A stretch of DNA of 64,000 bases, from contig JAVZLK010000003.1 in the NCBI GenBank assembly GCA_038883795.1, positions 32,001 to 96,000 on the forward strand, in the 5' to 3' direction. Position 1 is the first letter of the stretch, and every line of letters begins with the position of its first letter. The translations under genes were made by a program, and so were the position numbers. Below the pieces are notes generated by a model, which saw only the letters and a list, made by a program, of their open reading frames with translations, searched no databases and was not told the origin of the DNA. This document shows positions 2,037 to 14,460 of this stretch, one piece after another. The stretch comes from Candidatus Bathyarchaeia archaeon (lineage in GTDB: Archaea; Thermoproteota; Bathyarchaeia; Bathyarchaeales; Bathycorpusculaceae).

Positions 2037-3113
2037 TTACCTTGTCACTTCAGCCTTTTTCACGATTTCTAGGCATTCTTTTGCTTCTTTGTCTGTTTCA
2101 AAGTATTTTCTGATTGGTTCTAGGAGTTTTGCTATTTCCTTTGCCACCGCATTTTTAAGGTCTTGGGGGTGCACTTCGCCATTTCTGTAAGCCCTTTCTA
2201 ACGCTTCGTAGCTTTCGAATTGGGTTGTTCCTCCGAATTTTGCTGGTCTTTCTATTTGGAAGGCTTCTTTTTCGTGGAATATTATGTATTTCACTATTTC
2301 CAGAATCGGGTTTGCCTCAATTTGTTTTTCTGGGCACCATGCCTTCTGCAGTTTCGCTCTTATCTGTTCTTCTGTGTCGTGGATGAATATGGCTGTCCAA
2401 GGTTTTGACTTGCTCATTTTGCTTGCTATAACCTGTTCCAGTTTGTCCTTTGACTTTAGTTCCACTGGTTTTGCAATTCCCATTAGGAGGTGGTGGTGGA
2501 CCGCCACGGGTTTTTTCCATCCCATTTTTGGGAAAATTTCTCTCGCTAAGACGTGGGCTTTTCTTTGGTCCATTCCGCCGTGGGGTATGTCTGCGCCTAT
2601 TTCTTTTATGTCTACGGCTTGCATGGGCGGATAAAAGTATTGCGAGAGGTCAAGTTTTTCGTGTTCGCTTCTTCCCATTATCGTCATACATCTTAGGCTT
2701 CTTGCAATTGTCATGTGCTTAGAGAATTTGATGACGTTTCTCCAATACTCAAGATTTTTGCTATATAATTCTGAACCTAAAACAGTCTTTACTCCTGGAC
2801 AGAAAAATTTGAACGCTTTCTCATAATATTTTGCTGCTTTCAGAATCTTATCCCAGTCTCCGCCGAACTTGTCGTTGATGAAGCTGTGCCAATCCGCAAG
2901 ATAGGCTTGGCATTTTATTCCAGCTTTTATGAAATCGTTTATTTTGAAACCAGAAATGACAAGGTTTCCCAGATGGAGTAAGCCTGAAATTTCAAAGCCT
3001 ATGTAATGTCCGGGATGCTCGTTTGTTTCTAAAAGTTCCCTTAACTCTTCTTCTACGAGGATTTCTTCTGTGGGTGGCTTTTTGATTAGGTCAATTTTTG
3101 TTTCTATATCCAA
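2037..3113 (-). CDS. tyrS: Tyrosine--tRNA ligase
   Basis: YIGFEISGLLHLG (HIGH), YPPMQAVD, GGMDQRKAH, KMSKS. Confidence 0.96.
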   Translation of the reverse strand: MDIETKIDLIKKPPTEEILVEEELRELLETNEHPGHYIGFEISGLLHLGNLVISGFKINDFIKAGIKCQAYLADWHSFINDKFGGDWDKILKAAKYYEKAFKFFCPGVKTVLGSELYSKNLEYWRNVIKFSKHMTIARSLRCMTIMGRSEHEKLDLSQYFYPPMQAVDIKEIGADIPHGGMDQRKAHVLAREIFPKMGWKKPVAVHHHLLMGIAKPVELKSKDKLEQVIASKMSKSKPWTAIFIHDTEEQIRAKLQKAWCPEKQIEANPILEIVKYIIFHEKEAFQIERPAKFGGTTQFESYEALERAYRNGEVHPQDLKNAVAKEIAKLLEPIRKYFETDKEAKECLEIVKKAEVTR

Positions 3114-3164
3114 GTCTTACCAAGCCTTCTACATTTTATGCAAAGTGAAACTTAAAAGTTGTTT

Positions 3165-3380
3165 CGCGGGCGTTTGTTTCCCACCTAACCTATCACTTAA
3201 CTTCACCGTGGAGCCTTGCGCTCCTCTTGGTTAAGCTCTCTCCAGTGTGGGATTTTTGCGCCCGCGCCCACCGTGTCTCATGCTTGGGTAAACCCGCCTT
3301 CAATGGCTTTTCGCCTTTGTTGGGTCCGTCTGCATGAATTTTCCGGTGGGATTGCATTAGGCTCGTTAAGGGTCATCGCC
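3165..3380 (-). ncRNA. Unassigned ~216-nt structured RNA with two nested long hairpin domains
   Basis: GC-rich intergenic island. Minus-strand pairings CCCACCG/CGGTGGG, TTCATGC/GCATGAG, CGCGGGCG/CGCCCGCG, TCCCAC/GTGGGA, CTTAAC/GTTAAG, GGAGC/GCTCC; A-rich linkers. Confidence 0.7.
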
Positions 3381-3454
3381 AAAAGTATACAAGTTGTAGG
3401 CGAAAGAAAAGTTTTTCCTTCATTTTCCATATTTAATTGTAGGCTGTTTCCAGC

Positions 3455-4555
3455 ATGAATGAAAACATCAAATTATTAAATTTTCTCCGTCTTTTGCCTA
3501 AGATTGAGTTGCACCGTCATCTCATTGGGTCTATTAAGGTGGAGACACTTTTTGATATCGCAATTAAAAAAGGCATTCCGCTGCCAACTAATGATTTTCA
3601 AAAATTGAAAAATTCAATAGAAATGAGCAAGCCCTGTTCAAATCTACGACAATTTTTGAACCCGTTAAAAATACTCGGACTTTGCTTTTTTGATAAAGAA
3701 ACTGTTGCACGAGTTGCTTGTGAGGTTGTAGAAGACGCTGCAAAAGATAACATAAGATACTTGGAACTTGCAACTGGTCCTGCTTTCGAAGCCTCCTTCC
3801 ATCGTTTATCACTTGAAGAGGTTCTTGAGGGCGTTATAGAAGGGGTGATGAGGGCTGAGGGAAAATATGATATTAAGGTGAATCTGATTGTTGGTCCAAC
3901 CTTTAAGTGGATGGAACGAAAAGCTCATTCACCAGAAGAAGTGTTAGAAGCAGCTTTGAAATATCGGAATAAAGTTGTTGGTTTTGGCTTAGTAGCTGAA
4001 ACTAAGGAAGGCTTACCTTTCTCAAAGTGGGGACAAAAATTACGAAAGAGATACATTGAATTGGCTGGTAAAGCCAAAGATGGCGGTTTAGCCATGGCGG
4101 TTCATGCTGGAGAGGTAGGCGATGCTCAGAGCGTCATGGACGCTGTTAAGCATTTGAAAGCGGACAGGATTGGTCATGGAATAAAGCTTGTTGAGAACTT
4201 GGCTATCTTAGAAAATATTGTTAAGATGAAAATGCCTCTTGAGATTTGTGTATCCAGTAACATCAAAAGTGGAGTTGTTAAAAGTCTTAGGCAACATCCA
4301 GTCAGACGGCTTTGGGAACATGGGGCGCTCATTACGGTTAACACAGACGACCCAACATTATGTAGGACCACATTAACCAAAGAATACAACATTATAATCA
4401 AGAATCTAGGGTTTTCTTACTTCGAACTTAAATTAATTTTTAATGCAATAAACTCTGCATTTTTAATGGAGGATGAAAAAGCCCAACTATGTGAAACGTT
4501 TAAAAGAAGTTTTGCAAAGCTCGAGGAATGCGTCAATTACCAAAGGATATTTTAG
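3455..4555 (+). CDS. add: Adenosine/adenine deaminase family amidohydrolase
   Basis: LPKIELHRHLIGS, VHAGE, RIGHG, EICVSSN and NTDDP metal-binding motifs. Confidence 0.88.
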   Translation: MNENIKLLNFLRLLPKIELHRHLIGSIKVETLFDIAIKKGIPLPTNDFQKLKNSIEMSKPCSNLRQFLNPLKILGLCFFDKETVARVACEVVEDAAKDNIRYLELATGPAFEASFHRLSLEEVLEGVIEGVMRAEGKYDIKVNLIVGPTFKWMERKAHSPEEVLEAALKYRNKVVGFGLVAETKEGLPFSKWGQKLRKRYIELAGKAKDGGLAMAVHAGEVGDAQSVMDAVKHLKADRIGHGIKLVENLAILENIVKMKMPLEICVSSNIKSGVVKSLRQHPVRRLWEHGALITVNTDDPTLCRTTLTKEYNIIIKNLGFSYFELKLIFNAINSAFLMEDEKAQLCETFKRSFAKLEECVNYQRIF

Positions 4556-13108: not shown

Positions 13109-13234
13109 GGGGCTGCCAGCTTTCCCGGCTTCGCGTGGCCGAAGACCACACTACAACCGGGAACGGAGCACGGTTTAACTTCTGAGTTCGGAATGGGATC
13201 AGGTGGGTCCCGTGCCCTATGGCCGGCAAACCCC
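13109..13234 (-). rRNA. rrf: 5S ribosomal RNA, stand-alone (mature ends approximate)
   Basis: GGCCATAG...CACCTGATCCCATTCCGAACTCAGAAGTTAAAC core; complementary ends; BRE/TATA-like CGAAAAGTTAAT about 30 nt upstream. Confidence 0.96.
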
Positions 13235-14289: not shown

Positions 14290-14460
14290 GGGGCCGTAGT
14301 CTAGGAAGGTATGACGACGGGCTCCAGAATAGCCTAAAACGGGTTTGCGGACTGCACCATGCGGAATGAAGAAATTCTGGAGCGGTCATAGAGAAACCCG
14401 TAGGAACAGTCAAGCGCTGTTTCCGGGGAAAGGTCGTCGGTTCAAATCCGGCCGGCCCCA
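14290..14460 (+). tRNA. tRNA-Trp(CCA) with two introns (14328-14395 at 37/38; 14402-14430 at about 43/44)
   Basis: Acceptor GGGGCCG/CGGCCCC; anticodon stem ACGGG/CCCGT with loop CTCCAGA; T arm GTCGG-TTCAAAT-CCGGC; a canonical cloverleaf forms only after both inserts are removed. Confidence 0.93.
14328..14395 (+). ncRNA. C/D-box-like guide RNA nested in tRNA-Trp intron 1
   Basis: ACGGGTTT is complementary to AAACCCGT and is followed by D'-like CGGA; C'-like ATGAAGA; TTCTGGAGC is complementary to GCTCCAGAA. Confidence 0.75.

What the first reader, a model, noticed from the sequence alone, without database searches (positions are those of the whole stretch)
3165..3380. Unassigned ~216-nt, highly structured ncRNA upstream of tyrS
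Seen (minus strand): a ~30-nt leader starting GGCGATGA. Domain 1 is closed by CCCACCG/CGGTGGG and TTCATGC/GCATGAG and encloses two small hairpins. Domain 2 follows with no spacer and has four nested helices: CGCGGGCG/CGCCCGCG, TCCCAC/GTGGGA, CTTAAC/GTTAAG, GGAGC/GCTCC. A U-G wobble and purine-rich loops favour the minus strand. A weak BRE/TATA-like GAAAAACTTTTC lies ~31 nt upstream, similar to the spacing at the 5S gene. tyrS appears to have its own TATA-like element downstream. I see no RNase P, SRP, tRNA, T-box or group I/II intron signature. Inference: a novel independent archaeal RNA or a tyrS leader.
Basis: partly seen in the sequence, partly recalled or inferred. Interest (0 to 1): 0.8.

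Follow-up and report, generated by a model that had tools for sequence, protein, structure and literature searches.

The report
Circular two-hairpin H/ACA guide RNA
The structured RNA upstream of tyrS is most likely a two-hairpin H/ACA guide RNA, a known class that directs pseudouridine formation in ribosomal RNA, here apparently matured into a small RNA circle, so it is a new version of a familiar RNA rather than a new kind.

Summary
30 of 51 pairs show compensatory changes across 103 homologues.

It is not a tyrS leader. It is an independent gene found in 131 of 151 Bathyarchaeia genomes and in other Thermoproteota classes.

Each of its two domains has H/ACA guide anatomy:
- a lower stem
- a conserved internal loop
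- a 6-bp upper stem
- a K-turn
- an invariant ACA

Relatives give sub-threshold Rfam hits to HgcG/Pab40, whose third hairpin guides the conserved pseudouridine in 23S helix 69. Domain 2 shares that hairpin's loop motifs and is complementary to both flanks of the helix-69 loop. Domain 1 best matches helix 71, but weakly.

In one metatranscriptome, contigs 90-99% alike cover only 3166-3349. One of them closes on itself, which implies a 184-nt circle lacking the 5' K-turn leader.

The linkage to tyrS is old synteny (pheS-pheT-RNA-tyrS). In two genomes an integrase element splits the gene and carries a spare copy.

Verdict: a new variant of a known kind, of moderate interest. No pseudouridine, protein binding or transcript end has been measured.

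The parts
3406..3417 (-). BRE/TATA-like promoter element (GAAAAACTTTTC), about 26-37 nt upstream of the predicted first base at 3380
   Evidence: Read. Relatives carry a better conserved AACAGTAACATTTAACTT at the same alignment position. The transcription start is inferred, not measured.
3350..3380 (-). 5' leader (RNA nt 1-31). It holds K-turn 1: stem G1-C21, G2-C20, C3-G19; bulge G4 A5 U6; G7 A8 facing G17 A18. Conserved AAU lies just before the circle.
   Evidence: G2 and A5 are invariant; C3, U6, G7, A8, G19, C20, A28, A29 and U30 are at least 90% conserved in 103 sequences. X3 contigs give no depth at 3358-3700. The element-borne copy B lacks this leader.
3166..3349 (-). Inferred mature circular RNA, 184 nt (RNA nt 32-215, or 31-214 given 1 ambiguous letter)
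   Evidence: X3 contig record 17 (214 nt, depth 74.8) lies on 3322->3166 and then 3349->3293. The joint is 3166|3349, 'goes back 184'. 214 is what 184 + 30 gives for a closed cycle if the assembler used 31-mers, which is my assumption. The circular MFE keeps both arms and the central duplex.
3344..3350 (-). Clamp helix of domain 1, 5' strand CCCACCG (nt 31-37), pairing with 3267-3273
   Evidence: 100% of cells paired. A-U/G-C/G-U and C-G/U-A covariation at 2 of 7 pairs (helix 2). Fully compensated in L160.
3274..3338 (-). Domain 1 H/ACA unit (nt 43-107):
- lower stem 43-49/98-104
- loop strands AGACGGA (3325-3331) and UUUACCCAA (3284-3292)
- upper stem 57-59/86-88 plus C62-G83
- K-turn 2 (A64 A65 / U79 G80 A81)
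- apical stem 66-68/74-76
- ACA at 3274-3276
   Evidence: 6 of 7 lower-stem pairs covary (helix 3). G51 A52 C53 G54 G55, U91 A92 C93 C94 C95 A96 and A105 C106 A107 are invariant in 103 of 103 sequences. The same loops occur in other classes.
3267..3273 (-). Clamp helix of domain 1, 3' strand CGGUGGG (nt 108-114)
3259..3266 (-). Clamp helix of domain 2, 5' strand CGCGGGCG (nt 115-122), pairing with 3165-3172
   Evidence: helix 7: 3 of 8 pairs with changes on both sides, 95.7% of cells paired.
3175..3252 (-). Domain 2 H/ACA unit (nt 129-206):
- lower stem 129-135/196-202
- loop strands ..GGAGAGAG (3236-3245) and UGAUAGGUUA (3186-3195)
- upper stem CUUAAC/GUUAAG (146-151/180-185)
- K-turn 3 (A154, G155-C173, U176 G177 A178)
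- apical stem 157-161/167-171
- ACA at 3175-3177
   Evidence: helices 8-11. G139, A154, G155, C173, U176, G177, A178, G185, G187, U189, G192, A204 and C205 are invariant. It shares UGUUA and ..AG|C with the HgcG motif 3 consensus.
3165..3172 (-). Clamp helix of domain 2, 3' strand CGCCCGCG (nt 209-216)
3150..3160 (-). AACTTTTAAGT: the TATA-like element of tyrS and/or the oligo-T stop for the RNA gene
   Evidence: Conserved in many loci. In L017 it lies about 60 nt further from the RNA and stays with tyrS. Its function is inferred.
2037..3113 (-). tyrS (tyrosyl-tRNA synthetase): the downstream neighbour, not part of the RNA
   Evidence: Pfam tRNA-synt_1b, E = 2e-41.

Best explanation
The element is the gene of a two-hairpin box H/ACA guide sRNA, an L7Ae/Cbf5/Nop10/Gar1-type RNP RNA.

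Anatomy. It is transcribed from its own promoter with a 5' leader that carries a C/D-like K-turn. Each domain is an H/ACA unit made of:
- a lower stem
- a conserved internal loop (the pseudouridylation pocket)
- a 6-bp upper stem
- a K-turn for L7Ae
- an apical stem
- an ACA directly 3' of the lower stem, for the Cbf5 PUA domain

Domain 2 is the Thermoproteota counterpart of hairpin 3 of HgcG/Pab40/Pf7. It is predicted to place the loop of 23S rRNA helix 69 (E. coli U1915/U1917 equivalents) in its pocket. It does so by pairing GUUA with UAAC (1911-1914) and GAGAGAG with CUCUCUC (1920-1926).

Domain 1 is predicted, less surely, to pair with helix 71 (GGGUAAG-U-UCCG) and to target the U1955 equivalent.

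Maturation. The leader and trailer are removed and the ends are joined into a 184-nt circle. In the circle the two outer 'clamp' helices form one nearly continuous duplex, with one H/ACA arm at each end.

Shown:
- the structure and its covariation
- conservation of the loops, the ACA and the K-turns
- distribution across genomes
- RNA-level presence and a circular junction in one metatranscriptome
- distant similarity to HgcG

Inferred:
- protein partners
- target uridines
- the processing enzymes
- the transcription start
For: 1. Structure. 51 pairs, 93.5% of cells paired against 37-46% when slid. 30 pairs change on both sides, and 0 of 500 shuffles reach any measure.

2. H/ACA anatomy, judged against the rules quoted in review PMC7991803 (passages).
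- The ACA is invariant after the lower stem of domain 1 (103 of 103). A204 and C205 are invariant in domain 2.
- Both K-turns sit 6 positions above the loop.
- The loop-to-ACA distance is 15-16 nt in domain 1.

3. Helices drift while loops, ACA and K-turns stay.
- L160, from another order, has every helix compensated but keeps ACGGA/ACCCA, GAGAGAG/UGUUAGUUA, both ACAs and the K-turns.
- The same holds for the element-borne copy B.

4. The hairpins behave as modules.
- Domain 2 occurs alone in G042 and in several families.
- D1 and D2 are separate or oppositely oriented in G440 and G473.
- D1 is fused to a different second hairpin in family f21.

5. Link to a curated H/ACA family.
- 4 of 16 fetched relatives hit RF00064 HgcG (Pab40) at 25.3-30.3 bits, E from 3.4e-6 to 1.2e-4.
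- 7 of 151 Bathyarchaeia genomes hit it at E <= 0.01, and all 7 hits lie on R1 hits.
- The HgcG motif 3 consensus has ...AG|C and UGUUA where domain 2 has GAGAGAG|C and UG(U/A)UA.
- Pab40 motif 3 guides 23S psi2016, one of the two highly conserved psi of stem-loop 69 (PMC2377435, passages).

6. Target complementarity.
- The G040 domain 2 loops pair with its own 23S as uaacu[CUGA]cucucuuaag. This is the top site in 16S plus 23S, with p about 0.01 from 200 shuffles.
- The domain 1 top site in both G012 and G040 is ggguaag[U]uccg in helix 71.

7. Machinery. A Cbf5-type TruB_N and a Nop10 are encoded in the genome.

8. Expression and circle.
- X3 contig depth is up to 1208 within 3172-3295 and zero over tyrS and upstream.
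- A closed 214-nt contig carries the joint 3166|3349.
- The joint is not seen in the two probably-DNA runs X1 and X2.

9. Precedents in print.
- A circular H/ACA sR109 in S. solfataricus (PMC3326292, passages).
- The single two-hairpin H/ACA sRNA of N. equitans lies next to its tyrosyl-tRNA synthetase gene (PMC3491384, passages).
Against: 1. The window's own copy gives no RF00064 hit (at E <= 10). No relative reaches the family's gathering score of 77 bits. The control rang in 0 of 14 reference genomes, so that search is insensitive.

2. Pairing to helix 69 is non-canonical. It leaves 4-5 unpaired target bases instead of the usual two.
- In the A188 variant, which the window and G012 carry, the GUUA/UAAC helix has an A.A mismatch.
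- My contiguous-pair scan then finds nothing there: top scores are 7.5-8.5, with p 0.2-0.8.
- Strict two-base-gap scans found nothing of 9 bp or more.

3. The domain 1 helix 71 site is not significant alone (p 0.09 and 0.155). The guide base facing A1952 varies among lineages.

4. The domain 2 loop-to-ACA distance is 16-18 nt, at or beyond the 14-16 rule.

5. Both ACAs lie in internal loops above a further helix rather than in a free tail. I found no description of that arrangement for H/ACA RNAs in the passages I read.

6. The circle rests on one assembled contig from one run. That contig comes from relatives 90-99% identical, not from this organism. The raw-read run X4 gave 1 read.

7. No 23S rRNA is assembled for this genome.
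Confidence: 0.78

Rival explanations
1. It is an H/ACA-like RNP RNA that does not guide pseudouridylation. Its invariant loops would instead pair with the helix 69-71 region of pre-23S rRNA, or bind a protein, so that it acts as an assembly chaperone or scaffold. Eukaryotic snR30/U17 would be the analogy; that comparison is recalled, not tested here.
For: - The pairings found do not fit the two-unpaired-base geometry.
- The loops are invariant across the class and in the paralogue.
- The two best sites lie about 30 nt apart in domain IV of 23S.
Against: - Homology with Pab40 motif 3, which is active as a guide in vitro.
- The domain 1 helix 71 site does fit the canonical rules if U1956 is left unpaired: 7 + 3 bp, with the ruler at 15-16.
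- Pab19 is reported active with an extra unpaired base (PMC2377435, passage).
Confidence: 0.12
2. It is a cis-acting leader or riboswitch-like regulator of tyrS, an archaeal analogue of a T-box.
For: - It sits directly upstream of tyrS on the same strand in 66 of 102 loci that have enough downstream sequence, and within 3.5 kb in 18 more.
- The same holds in G048 and G095 of other classes.
- The adjacency is also reported for N. equitans.
Against: - There is no T-box or other riboswitch hit.
- X3 depth stops before tyrS.
- A TATA-like element lies between them and travels with tyrS.
- The RNA is on the opposite strand in G042.
- The genes are unlinked in G033, G034, G060, G131 and G182.
- The neighbourhood is a longer conserved block, pheS-pheT-RNA-tyrS-x-toprim. 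Adjacency alone therefore needs no functional link.
Confidence: 0.03
3. It is an L7Ae-binding RNA of a new RNP class unrelated to Cbf5. The ACA and the likeness to HgcG would then be convergent or chance.
For: - The RF00064 scores are far below threshold.
- The clamp helices below the ACA and the circular form are atypical.
Against: - Seven of seven class-level RF00064 hits coincide with R1 hits.
- The ACA is invariant at the expected place in both units and in all distant homologues examined.
- The K-turn spacing matches the H/ACA rule.
Confidence: 0.07

Closest known systems
HgcG / Pab40 / Pf7 / Afu4 (Rfam RF00064), the three-hairpin H/ACA sRNA of Euryarchaeota, specifically its motif 3, the helix 69 psi guide
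   Same: - Each is a hairpin with lower stem, pocket, upper stem, K-turn and ACA.
- The 3' pocket strand starts UGUUA, and the 5' strand ends ..AG before the upper stem.
- The target region is the helix 69 loop.
   Different: - It has two hairpins, not three.
- Domain 1 has no detected counterpart in RF00064.
- The 5' guide is GAGAGAG, pairing 1920-1926 by my reading. The HgcG consensus has GGGUUAG, which would pair 3 nt further 5'.
- An extra clamp helix lies below each ACA.
- It carries a leader K-turn and appears to be circular.
- The window copy is not detected by the Rfam model.
The single 159-nt two-hairpin H/ACA sRNA of Nanoarchaeum equitans (PMC3491384, passages read)
   Same: - It has two extended hairpins, each with a K-turn, and two ACA motifs.
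- Its gene lies next to the tyrosyl-tRNA synthetase gene.
   Different: - In that RNA the hairpins are separated only by ACA.
- No circular form of it is reported in the passages I read.
Circular H/ACA sRNA sR109 of Saccharolobus (Sulfolobus) solfataricus (PMC3326292, passages read)
   Same: It is an H/ACA sRNA detected as a circle in circRNA-seq.
   Different: - It is a 70-nt single hairpin.
- Circles were a minor form of sRNAs in that organism.
- Here the circle joins two units through a shared duplex.
Pab21 H/ACA plus C/D composite transcript of Pyrococcus (PMC2377435 and PMC4652768, passages)
   Same: An H/ACA unit and a C/D-type K-turn motif share one primary transcript, and forms with and without the C/D part exist.
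   Different: In Pab21 the C/D motif lies 3' of the H/ACA unit. Here the K-turn hairpin is a 5' leader absent from the inferred mature circle.

Membership tests
Archaeal box H/ACA guide sRNA | Hairpin with lower stem, internal loop (pocket) and upper stem | tested here: met
   Both domains. Covariation in lower and upper stems (helices 3, 4, 8, 9). Loops are conserved.
Archaeal box H/ACA guide sRNA | ACA (ANA) trinucleotide directly 3' of the lower stem | tested here: met
   - D1: A105 C106 A107 are invariant in 103 of 103 sequences.
- D2: A204 and C205 are invariant, and A206 is at least 90% conserved, 1-2 nt after the stem.
- The ACA is kept in L160, L163, copy B and other classes.
- Difference: each ACA lies in an internal loop above a clamp helix.
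Archaeal box H/ACA guide sRNA | K-turn or K-loop 5-6 nt above the pocket (rule quoted in PMC7991803) | tested here: met
   - D2: 6-bp upper stem, then A154 / G155-C173 / U176 G177 A178, all invariant.
- D1: six positions (57-62/83-88), then G64 A65 / U79 G80 A81.
- K-turn assignments are read by eye from the sequence, not structurally tested.
Archaeal box H/ACA guide sRNA | Distance from target site to ACA of 14-16 nt | tested here: inconclusive
   - D1: 15-16 nt (nt 89/90-104).
- D2: 16 nt if G187 is the first pairing base, 17-18 nt if counted from the upper stem.
Archaeal box H/ACA guide sRNA | Bipartite complementarity (at least 3 bp each side) to a stable RNA around an unpaired U-N | tested here: inconclusive
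   - D1: helix 71, 7 + 3(4) bp, top-ranked in G012 and G040, but p is 0.09 and 0.155.
- D2: helix 69, 5 + 10 bp in G040 with 4 unpaired bases (p about 0.01). The A188 variant (G012, window) fails the contiguous test.
- The strict U-N register gave nothing of 9 bp or more.
Archaeal box H/ACA guide sRNA | Match to a curated H/ACA family model (RF00064 and others) | tested here: not met
   - Window copy: no hit.
- Relatives: sub-threshold hits only, 17.7-30.3 bits against a gathering score of 77, though all lie at the homologous place.
- I therefore file it as H/ACA by anatomy and transitive similarity, not as a member of RF00064.
Archaeal box H/ACA guide sRNA | Partner proteins encoded (Cbf5, Nop10) | tested here: met
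   TruB_N at G000:C7:69470-69763 (44.6 bits). Nop10p at C1:240954-241109 (87.2 bits). Gar1 and L7Ae were not searched.
Archaeal box H/ACA guide sRNA | Binds L7Ae/Cbf5 and directs U-to-psi conversion | not testable with these tools
   Needs reconstitution or psi mapping.
T-box leader / riboswitch | Match to the family model; read-through into the regulated gene | tested here: not met
   No Rfam hit at E <= 10. X3 depth is zero over tyrS. The RNA is on the opposite strand or unlinked in several genomes.
RNase P RNA / SRP RNA | Match to RF00373 / RF01857 | tested here: not met
   Both are found elsewhere in the genome at 191.3 and 182.7 bits. Nothing at the element.

The most novel reading that the evidence does not exclude
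The mature RNA is an obligately circular, two-armed H/ACA RNP of a new architecture.
- The two clamp helices fuse into one duplex that fixes two Cbf5 modules back to back.
- Both ACA boxes sit in internal loops.
- The enlarged domain 2 pocket takes in the whole helix 69 loop, so one pocket may serve both universally conserved uridines.
- The leader K-turn recruits L7Ae to direct end trimming and ligation.
- The linkage of this gene to tyrS, seen here in three Thermoproteota classes and reported for Nanoarchaeum, is functionally maintained rather than inherited by chance.
Probability: 0.25. Interest if true: 0.6.

Novelty: new variant of a known kind. Interest (0 to 1): 0.42.

Why it matters
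- It assigns a class-wide, highly expressed Bathyarchaeia RNA that current Rfam models miss. The model R1 built here recovers it in 131 of 151 genomes of the class, which is useful for annotating uncultivated archaea.
- It indicates that the helix 69 pseudouridine guide known from Euryarchaeota has a counterpart across Thermoproteota.
- It offers a natural case of an H/ACA RNA whose two units seem to be tied into a circle by a shared duplex. That is testable and bears on how archaeal sRNPs are stabilised and assembled.
- The gene behaves like a tRNA gene in two respects. It keeps an old neighbourhood, and it is used as an integration site by an element that brings its own copy. That argues that the RNA is important to the cell.

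Tried and rejected
- RNase P RNA or SRP RNA: both are found elsewhere in the genome.
- tRNA-Tyr in disguise: a canonical tRNA-Tyr(GUA) with a 58-nt intron exists at C7:5069-5203.
- tRNA-Tyr acceptor mimic (C-G closing pair plus A after domain 2). Dropped because L160 starts that helix with G-C and continues CCUCC, and L163 has GGGG/CCCC.
- Guide for psi35 of pre-tRNA-Tyr: neither pocket is complementary to the anticodon region. This was checked by eye against the sequence.
- rRNA, RNase P RNA or SRP RNA mimic: only 8-12-nt chance words by blastn-short.
- Whole-genome scan of G000 for pocket targets: a broad background and no stable-RNA site.
- Pre-rRNA spacer pairing: the sites are not shared between G012 and G040.
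- Canonical bulge-helix-bulge motif at the circle ends. By eye I found none, because the 4 nt after each cut are not complementary. No program was run.
- Leader-trailer pairing AUGCAA/UUGCAU in the window: not conserved in L004 (by eye).
- Raw-read run X4: 1 read laid, so it is uninformative.
- RtcB (PF01139): not found in G000, which is 87% complete. A PF09414 RNA_ligase-family hit (31.1 bits, 569-aa frame) may be a DNA ligase. Neither settles how the circle is closed.
- Earlier findings of this scan were not open.
- Paper searches found nothing describing this Bathyarchaeia RNA. Supplementary files were not seen. The supplements of PMC2377435 and PMC4652768 hold the guide-target drawings and could refine the comparison.

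Full report
**1. The observation**

RNA numbering below takes nt 1 as window 3380, so nt n is window 3381 - n.

- The 241-nt stretch around it folds to -83.9 kcal/mol (z = -5.46, 0 of 200 shuffles as good). The plus strand is weaker (z = -3.80).
- It is a GC island, 0.485-0.525 against 0.35-0.40 in the flanks.
- Rfam finds only a 5S rRNA and a tRNA elsewhere in the window at gathering score. It finds nothing at the element at E <= 10.
- The genome's RNase P RNA and SRP RNA are elsewhere.
- A canonical intron-bearing tRNA-Tyr exists.

**2. Conservation and structure**

BLAST found the element in 31 of 41 related genomes. An exact pattern scan of named genomes gave at least 119 records, and every title shown reads Bathyarchaeota or Bathyarchaeia.

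From 149 loci I took 103 distinct full-length copies.
- RNAalifold predicts 39 pairs, 21 with compensatory change.
- A 51-pair structure that I wrote from the window copy has 93.5% of cells paired, against 37-46% when slid.
- 30 pairs change on both sides, across 241 cells. 0 of 500 shuffles reach any measure.

The alignment was not fitted to this structure. The structure was, however, derived from one of its rows, which favours it in the slide control.

**3. Anatomy (invariants, read by eye)**

The 5' end is a K-turn hairpin: stem GGC/GCC, bulge G-A-U, and G-A facing G-A. Two domains follow, built alike:
- an outer 'clamp' helix
- a lower stem of 7 bp
- an internal loop with nearly invariant strands: D1 AGACGGA / UUUACCCA(A), D2 GAGAGAG / UG(A/U)UAGGUUA
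- six upper-stem positions
- a K-turn: D1 G64 A65 / U79 G80 A81; D2 A154, G155-C173, U176 G177 A178
- a variable apical stem
- an ACA directly after the lower stem's 3' strand. It is invariant in D1. In D2, A204 and C205 are invariant.

These match the features that a review gives for archaeal H/ACA sRNAs: a K-turn 5-6 nt above the pocket, and the ACA 14-16 nt from the target site (PMC7991803, passages). D1 measures 15-16 nt. D2 measures 16-18 nt.

**4. Not a tyrS leader**

tyrS follows on the same strand within 300 nt in 66 of 102 distinct loci that have at least 1300 nt downstream. It follows within 3.5 kb in 18 more, and is not found in 18.

The neighbourhood is a longer block, pheS-pheT-RNA-tyrS-x-toprim. 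pheT ends within 400 nt upstream in 41 of 60 loci. In this window an adenosine deaminase gene is inserted between pheT and the RNA.

Several observations argue against a leader:
- A TATA-like AACTTTTAAGT lies between the RNA and tyrS, and stays with tyrS where the spacing grows (L017).
- In G042 a domain-2-only gene lies beside tyrS on the other strand.
- In G033, G034, G060, G131 and G182 the genes are unlinked.

The adjacency does recur in other classes: G048 has a 17-nt gap and G095 about 370 nt. It is also reported for the only H/ACA sRNA of N. equitans (PMC3491384, passages). The linkage is therefore old, but it is not needed for function.

**5. Distribution and link to a known family**

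A covariance model of the whole RNA (R1) hits 131 of 151 genomes sampled from the class, and 83 of 94 high-quality ones. Families f20 (0/5) and f68 (0/1) have none.

It hits 59 of 151 genomes sampled from the phylum, including families outside the class: f27 14/15, f28 8/8, f39 3/3, f33 3/4, f43 2/2 and f21 5/19. Thirteen-genome families f25 and f30 have none. R1 E-values are rough.

In some lineages the two units are separate hits, oppositely oriented, or only one is found. In f21, D1 is fused to a different second hairpin.

Sixteen distant loci were fetched.
- Four of them give sub-threshold hits to RF00064 HgcG (Pab40), an H/ACA-box family, on its third hairpin (25.3-30.3 bits).
- In the class sample, 7 of 151 genomes hit RF00064 at E <= 0.01, and all 7 are at the R1 places.
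- None reaches the 77-bit gathering score, and the window copy gives no hit.
- The built-in control rang in 0 of 14 genomes, so this is weak but consistent evidence.

The HgcG motif 3 consensus printed shares ..AG|C and UGUUA with domain 2. Muller et al. assign Pab40 motif 3 to 23S psi2016. They call it one of the two highly conserved psi of stem-loop 69, and report it strongly active in vitro (PMC2377435, passages).

**6. Targets**

The genome has no 23S rRNA assembled, so I used the 16S and 23S of G012 and G040.

Strict scans with two unpaired bases found nothing of 9 bp or more. Earlier looser scans gave only weak sites. A whole-genome scan gave background only.

I then allowed 1-5 unpaired bases and used 200 window-shuffles as a null.
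- Domain 2 of G040 has its best site in the helix 69 loop, uaacu[CUGA]cucucuuaag (5 + 10 bp, p about 0.01).
- In G012, as in the window, the A188 variant breaks the short helix and the scan fails there (p 0.2-0.8). GAGAGAG is still exactly complementary to CUCUCUC, the 3' strand of helix 69.
- Domain 1's best site in both genomes is ggguaag[U]uccg in helix 71. On its own this is not significant (p 0.09 and 0.155).

E. coli position numbers are from my recall of that sequence. The helix 69 assignment is backed. The helix 71 assignment is my reading.

**7. Expression and circular form**

One true RNA-Seq metatranscriptome (X3, contigs 90-99% alike) covers only 3141-3357. Binned depth reaches 1208. 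It is zero over tyrS (2800-3140) and zero at 3358-3700.

One contig of 214 nt lies on 3322->3166 and then 3349->3293. That is a joint 3166|3349 going back 184 nt, with one ambiguous letter. 214 equals 184 + 30, the length a closed cycle gives if the assembler used 31-mers (my assumption). The joint is absent from the two probably-DNA runs.

I read this as a 184-nt circular RNA, nt 32-215, without the K-turn leader.
- In the circle the two clamp helices abut into one duplex, with two bases bulged opposite the junction.
- The evidence is one contig, one run and related organisms. Contigs cannot show level or ends.
- A circular H/ACA sRNA has been reported in S. solfataricus (PMC3326292, passages).
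- How the ends are cut and joined is open. I saw no bulge-helix-bulge motif. RtcB was not found in this 87%-complete genome. A PF09414 hit is ambiguous.

**8. An integration site with a spare copy**

In G013 (L040) and G021 (L053) the gene is split inside domain 1 by about 4.8 kb and about 6 kb respectively.
- L040 shows an exact 17-nt direct repeat at both junctions.
- The insert encodes a tyrosine recombinase. In L040 the Pfam Phage_integrase hit has E = 1.2e-14. In L053 the hit is weak, E = 0.0016.
- The insert also carries a complete, diverged copy of the RNA. That copy has its own promoter-like element and no K-turn leader. Its helices are compensated, and its loops and ACAs are kept.

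This fits a gene whose loss the element must make good. It also shows that the loop sequences are constant, not variable guides.

**9. Verdict**

This is a box H/ACA guide sRNA with two units. Domain 2 is the counterpart of the Pab40/HgcG helix 69 guide. The domain 1 target is probably helix 71.

The unusual points are:
- the clamp helices
- the ACAs placed in internal loops
- the leader K-turn
- the apparent circular mature form
- the old tyrS neighbourhood
- its use as an attachment site

No protein binding, pseudouridine or transcript end was measured here.

Noticed in passing
L040:377-5177 (G013) and L053:2654-7794 (G021): An integrative element splits the RNA gene inside domain 1.
- It is about 4.8 kb in L040 and about 6 kb in G021.
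- L040 has a 17-nt exact direct repeat at both junctions.
- It encodes a tyrosine recombinase whose frame runs out of the RNA's 5' fragment (L040:4264-5280).
- It carries a complete diverged copy of the RNA next to the integrase.
   Followed up: partly
window 3455-4555 (+): An adenosine deaminase gene sits between pheT and the RNA gene in this genome only. Among the loci L003-L032 it was found only in L003, the window's own locus. In most relatives pheT ends just upstream of the RNA.
   Followed up: partly
window 14290-14460 (+) and 13111-13230 (-): A tRNA match spans 171 nt, which implies an intron of about 100 nt. A 5S rRNA gene is also present (Rfam gathering hits).
   Followed up: no
G000:C7:5069-5203 (-): tRNA-Tyr(GUA) has a 58-nt intron that contains a CCACCC/GGUGGG hairpin. 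ARAGORN places the intron at 36/37. A 37/38 placement with G37 is equally readable.
   Followed up: no
L196, L197, L198, L202, L209 (family f21, another class): Domain 1, with the same AGACGGA / UUCACCCAG loops, is fused to a different second H/ACA-like hairpin with loops UCAGAA / CGAGUCAGA. This implies a different second target.
   Followed up: no
L194, L195 (family f27): Domain-2-only genes are closed by a 12-bp terminal helix, GGCAGACUGCUG/CAGCAGUCUGCC, directly below the ACA. The clamp below the ACA is therefore an old feature and not a by-product of fusing two units.
   Followed up: no
window 3111-3113 (-) and aligned loci: tyrS appears to start with TTG (TTGGATATAGAAAC...). The same start context is conserved in many relatives.
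   Followed up: no
G000 whole genome: No 23S rRNA is assembled, and only a partial 16S at a contig end. No RtcB was found (genome 87% complete).
   Followed up: no
control: The RF00064 search rang in none of the 14 reference genomes. These include Methanocaldococcus jannaschii, where I recall HgcG being first described. The first-look filter seems to miss this family.
   Followed up: no
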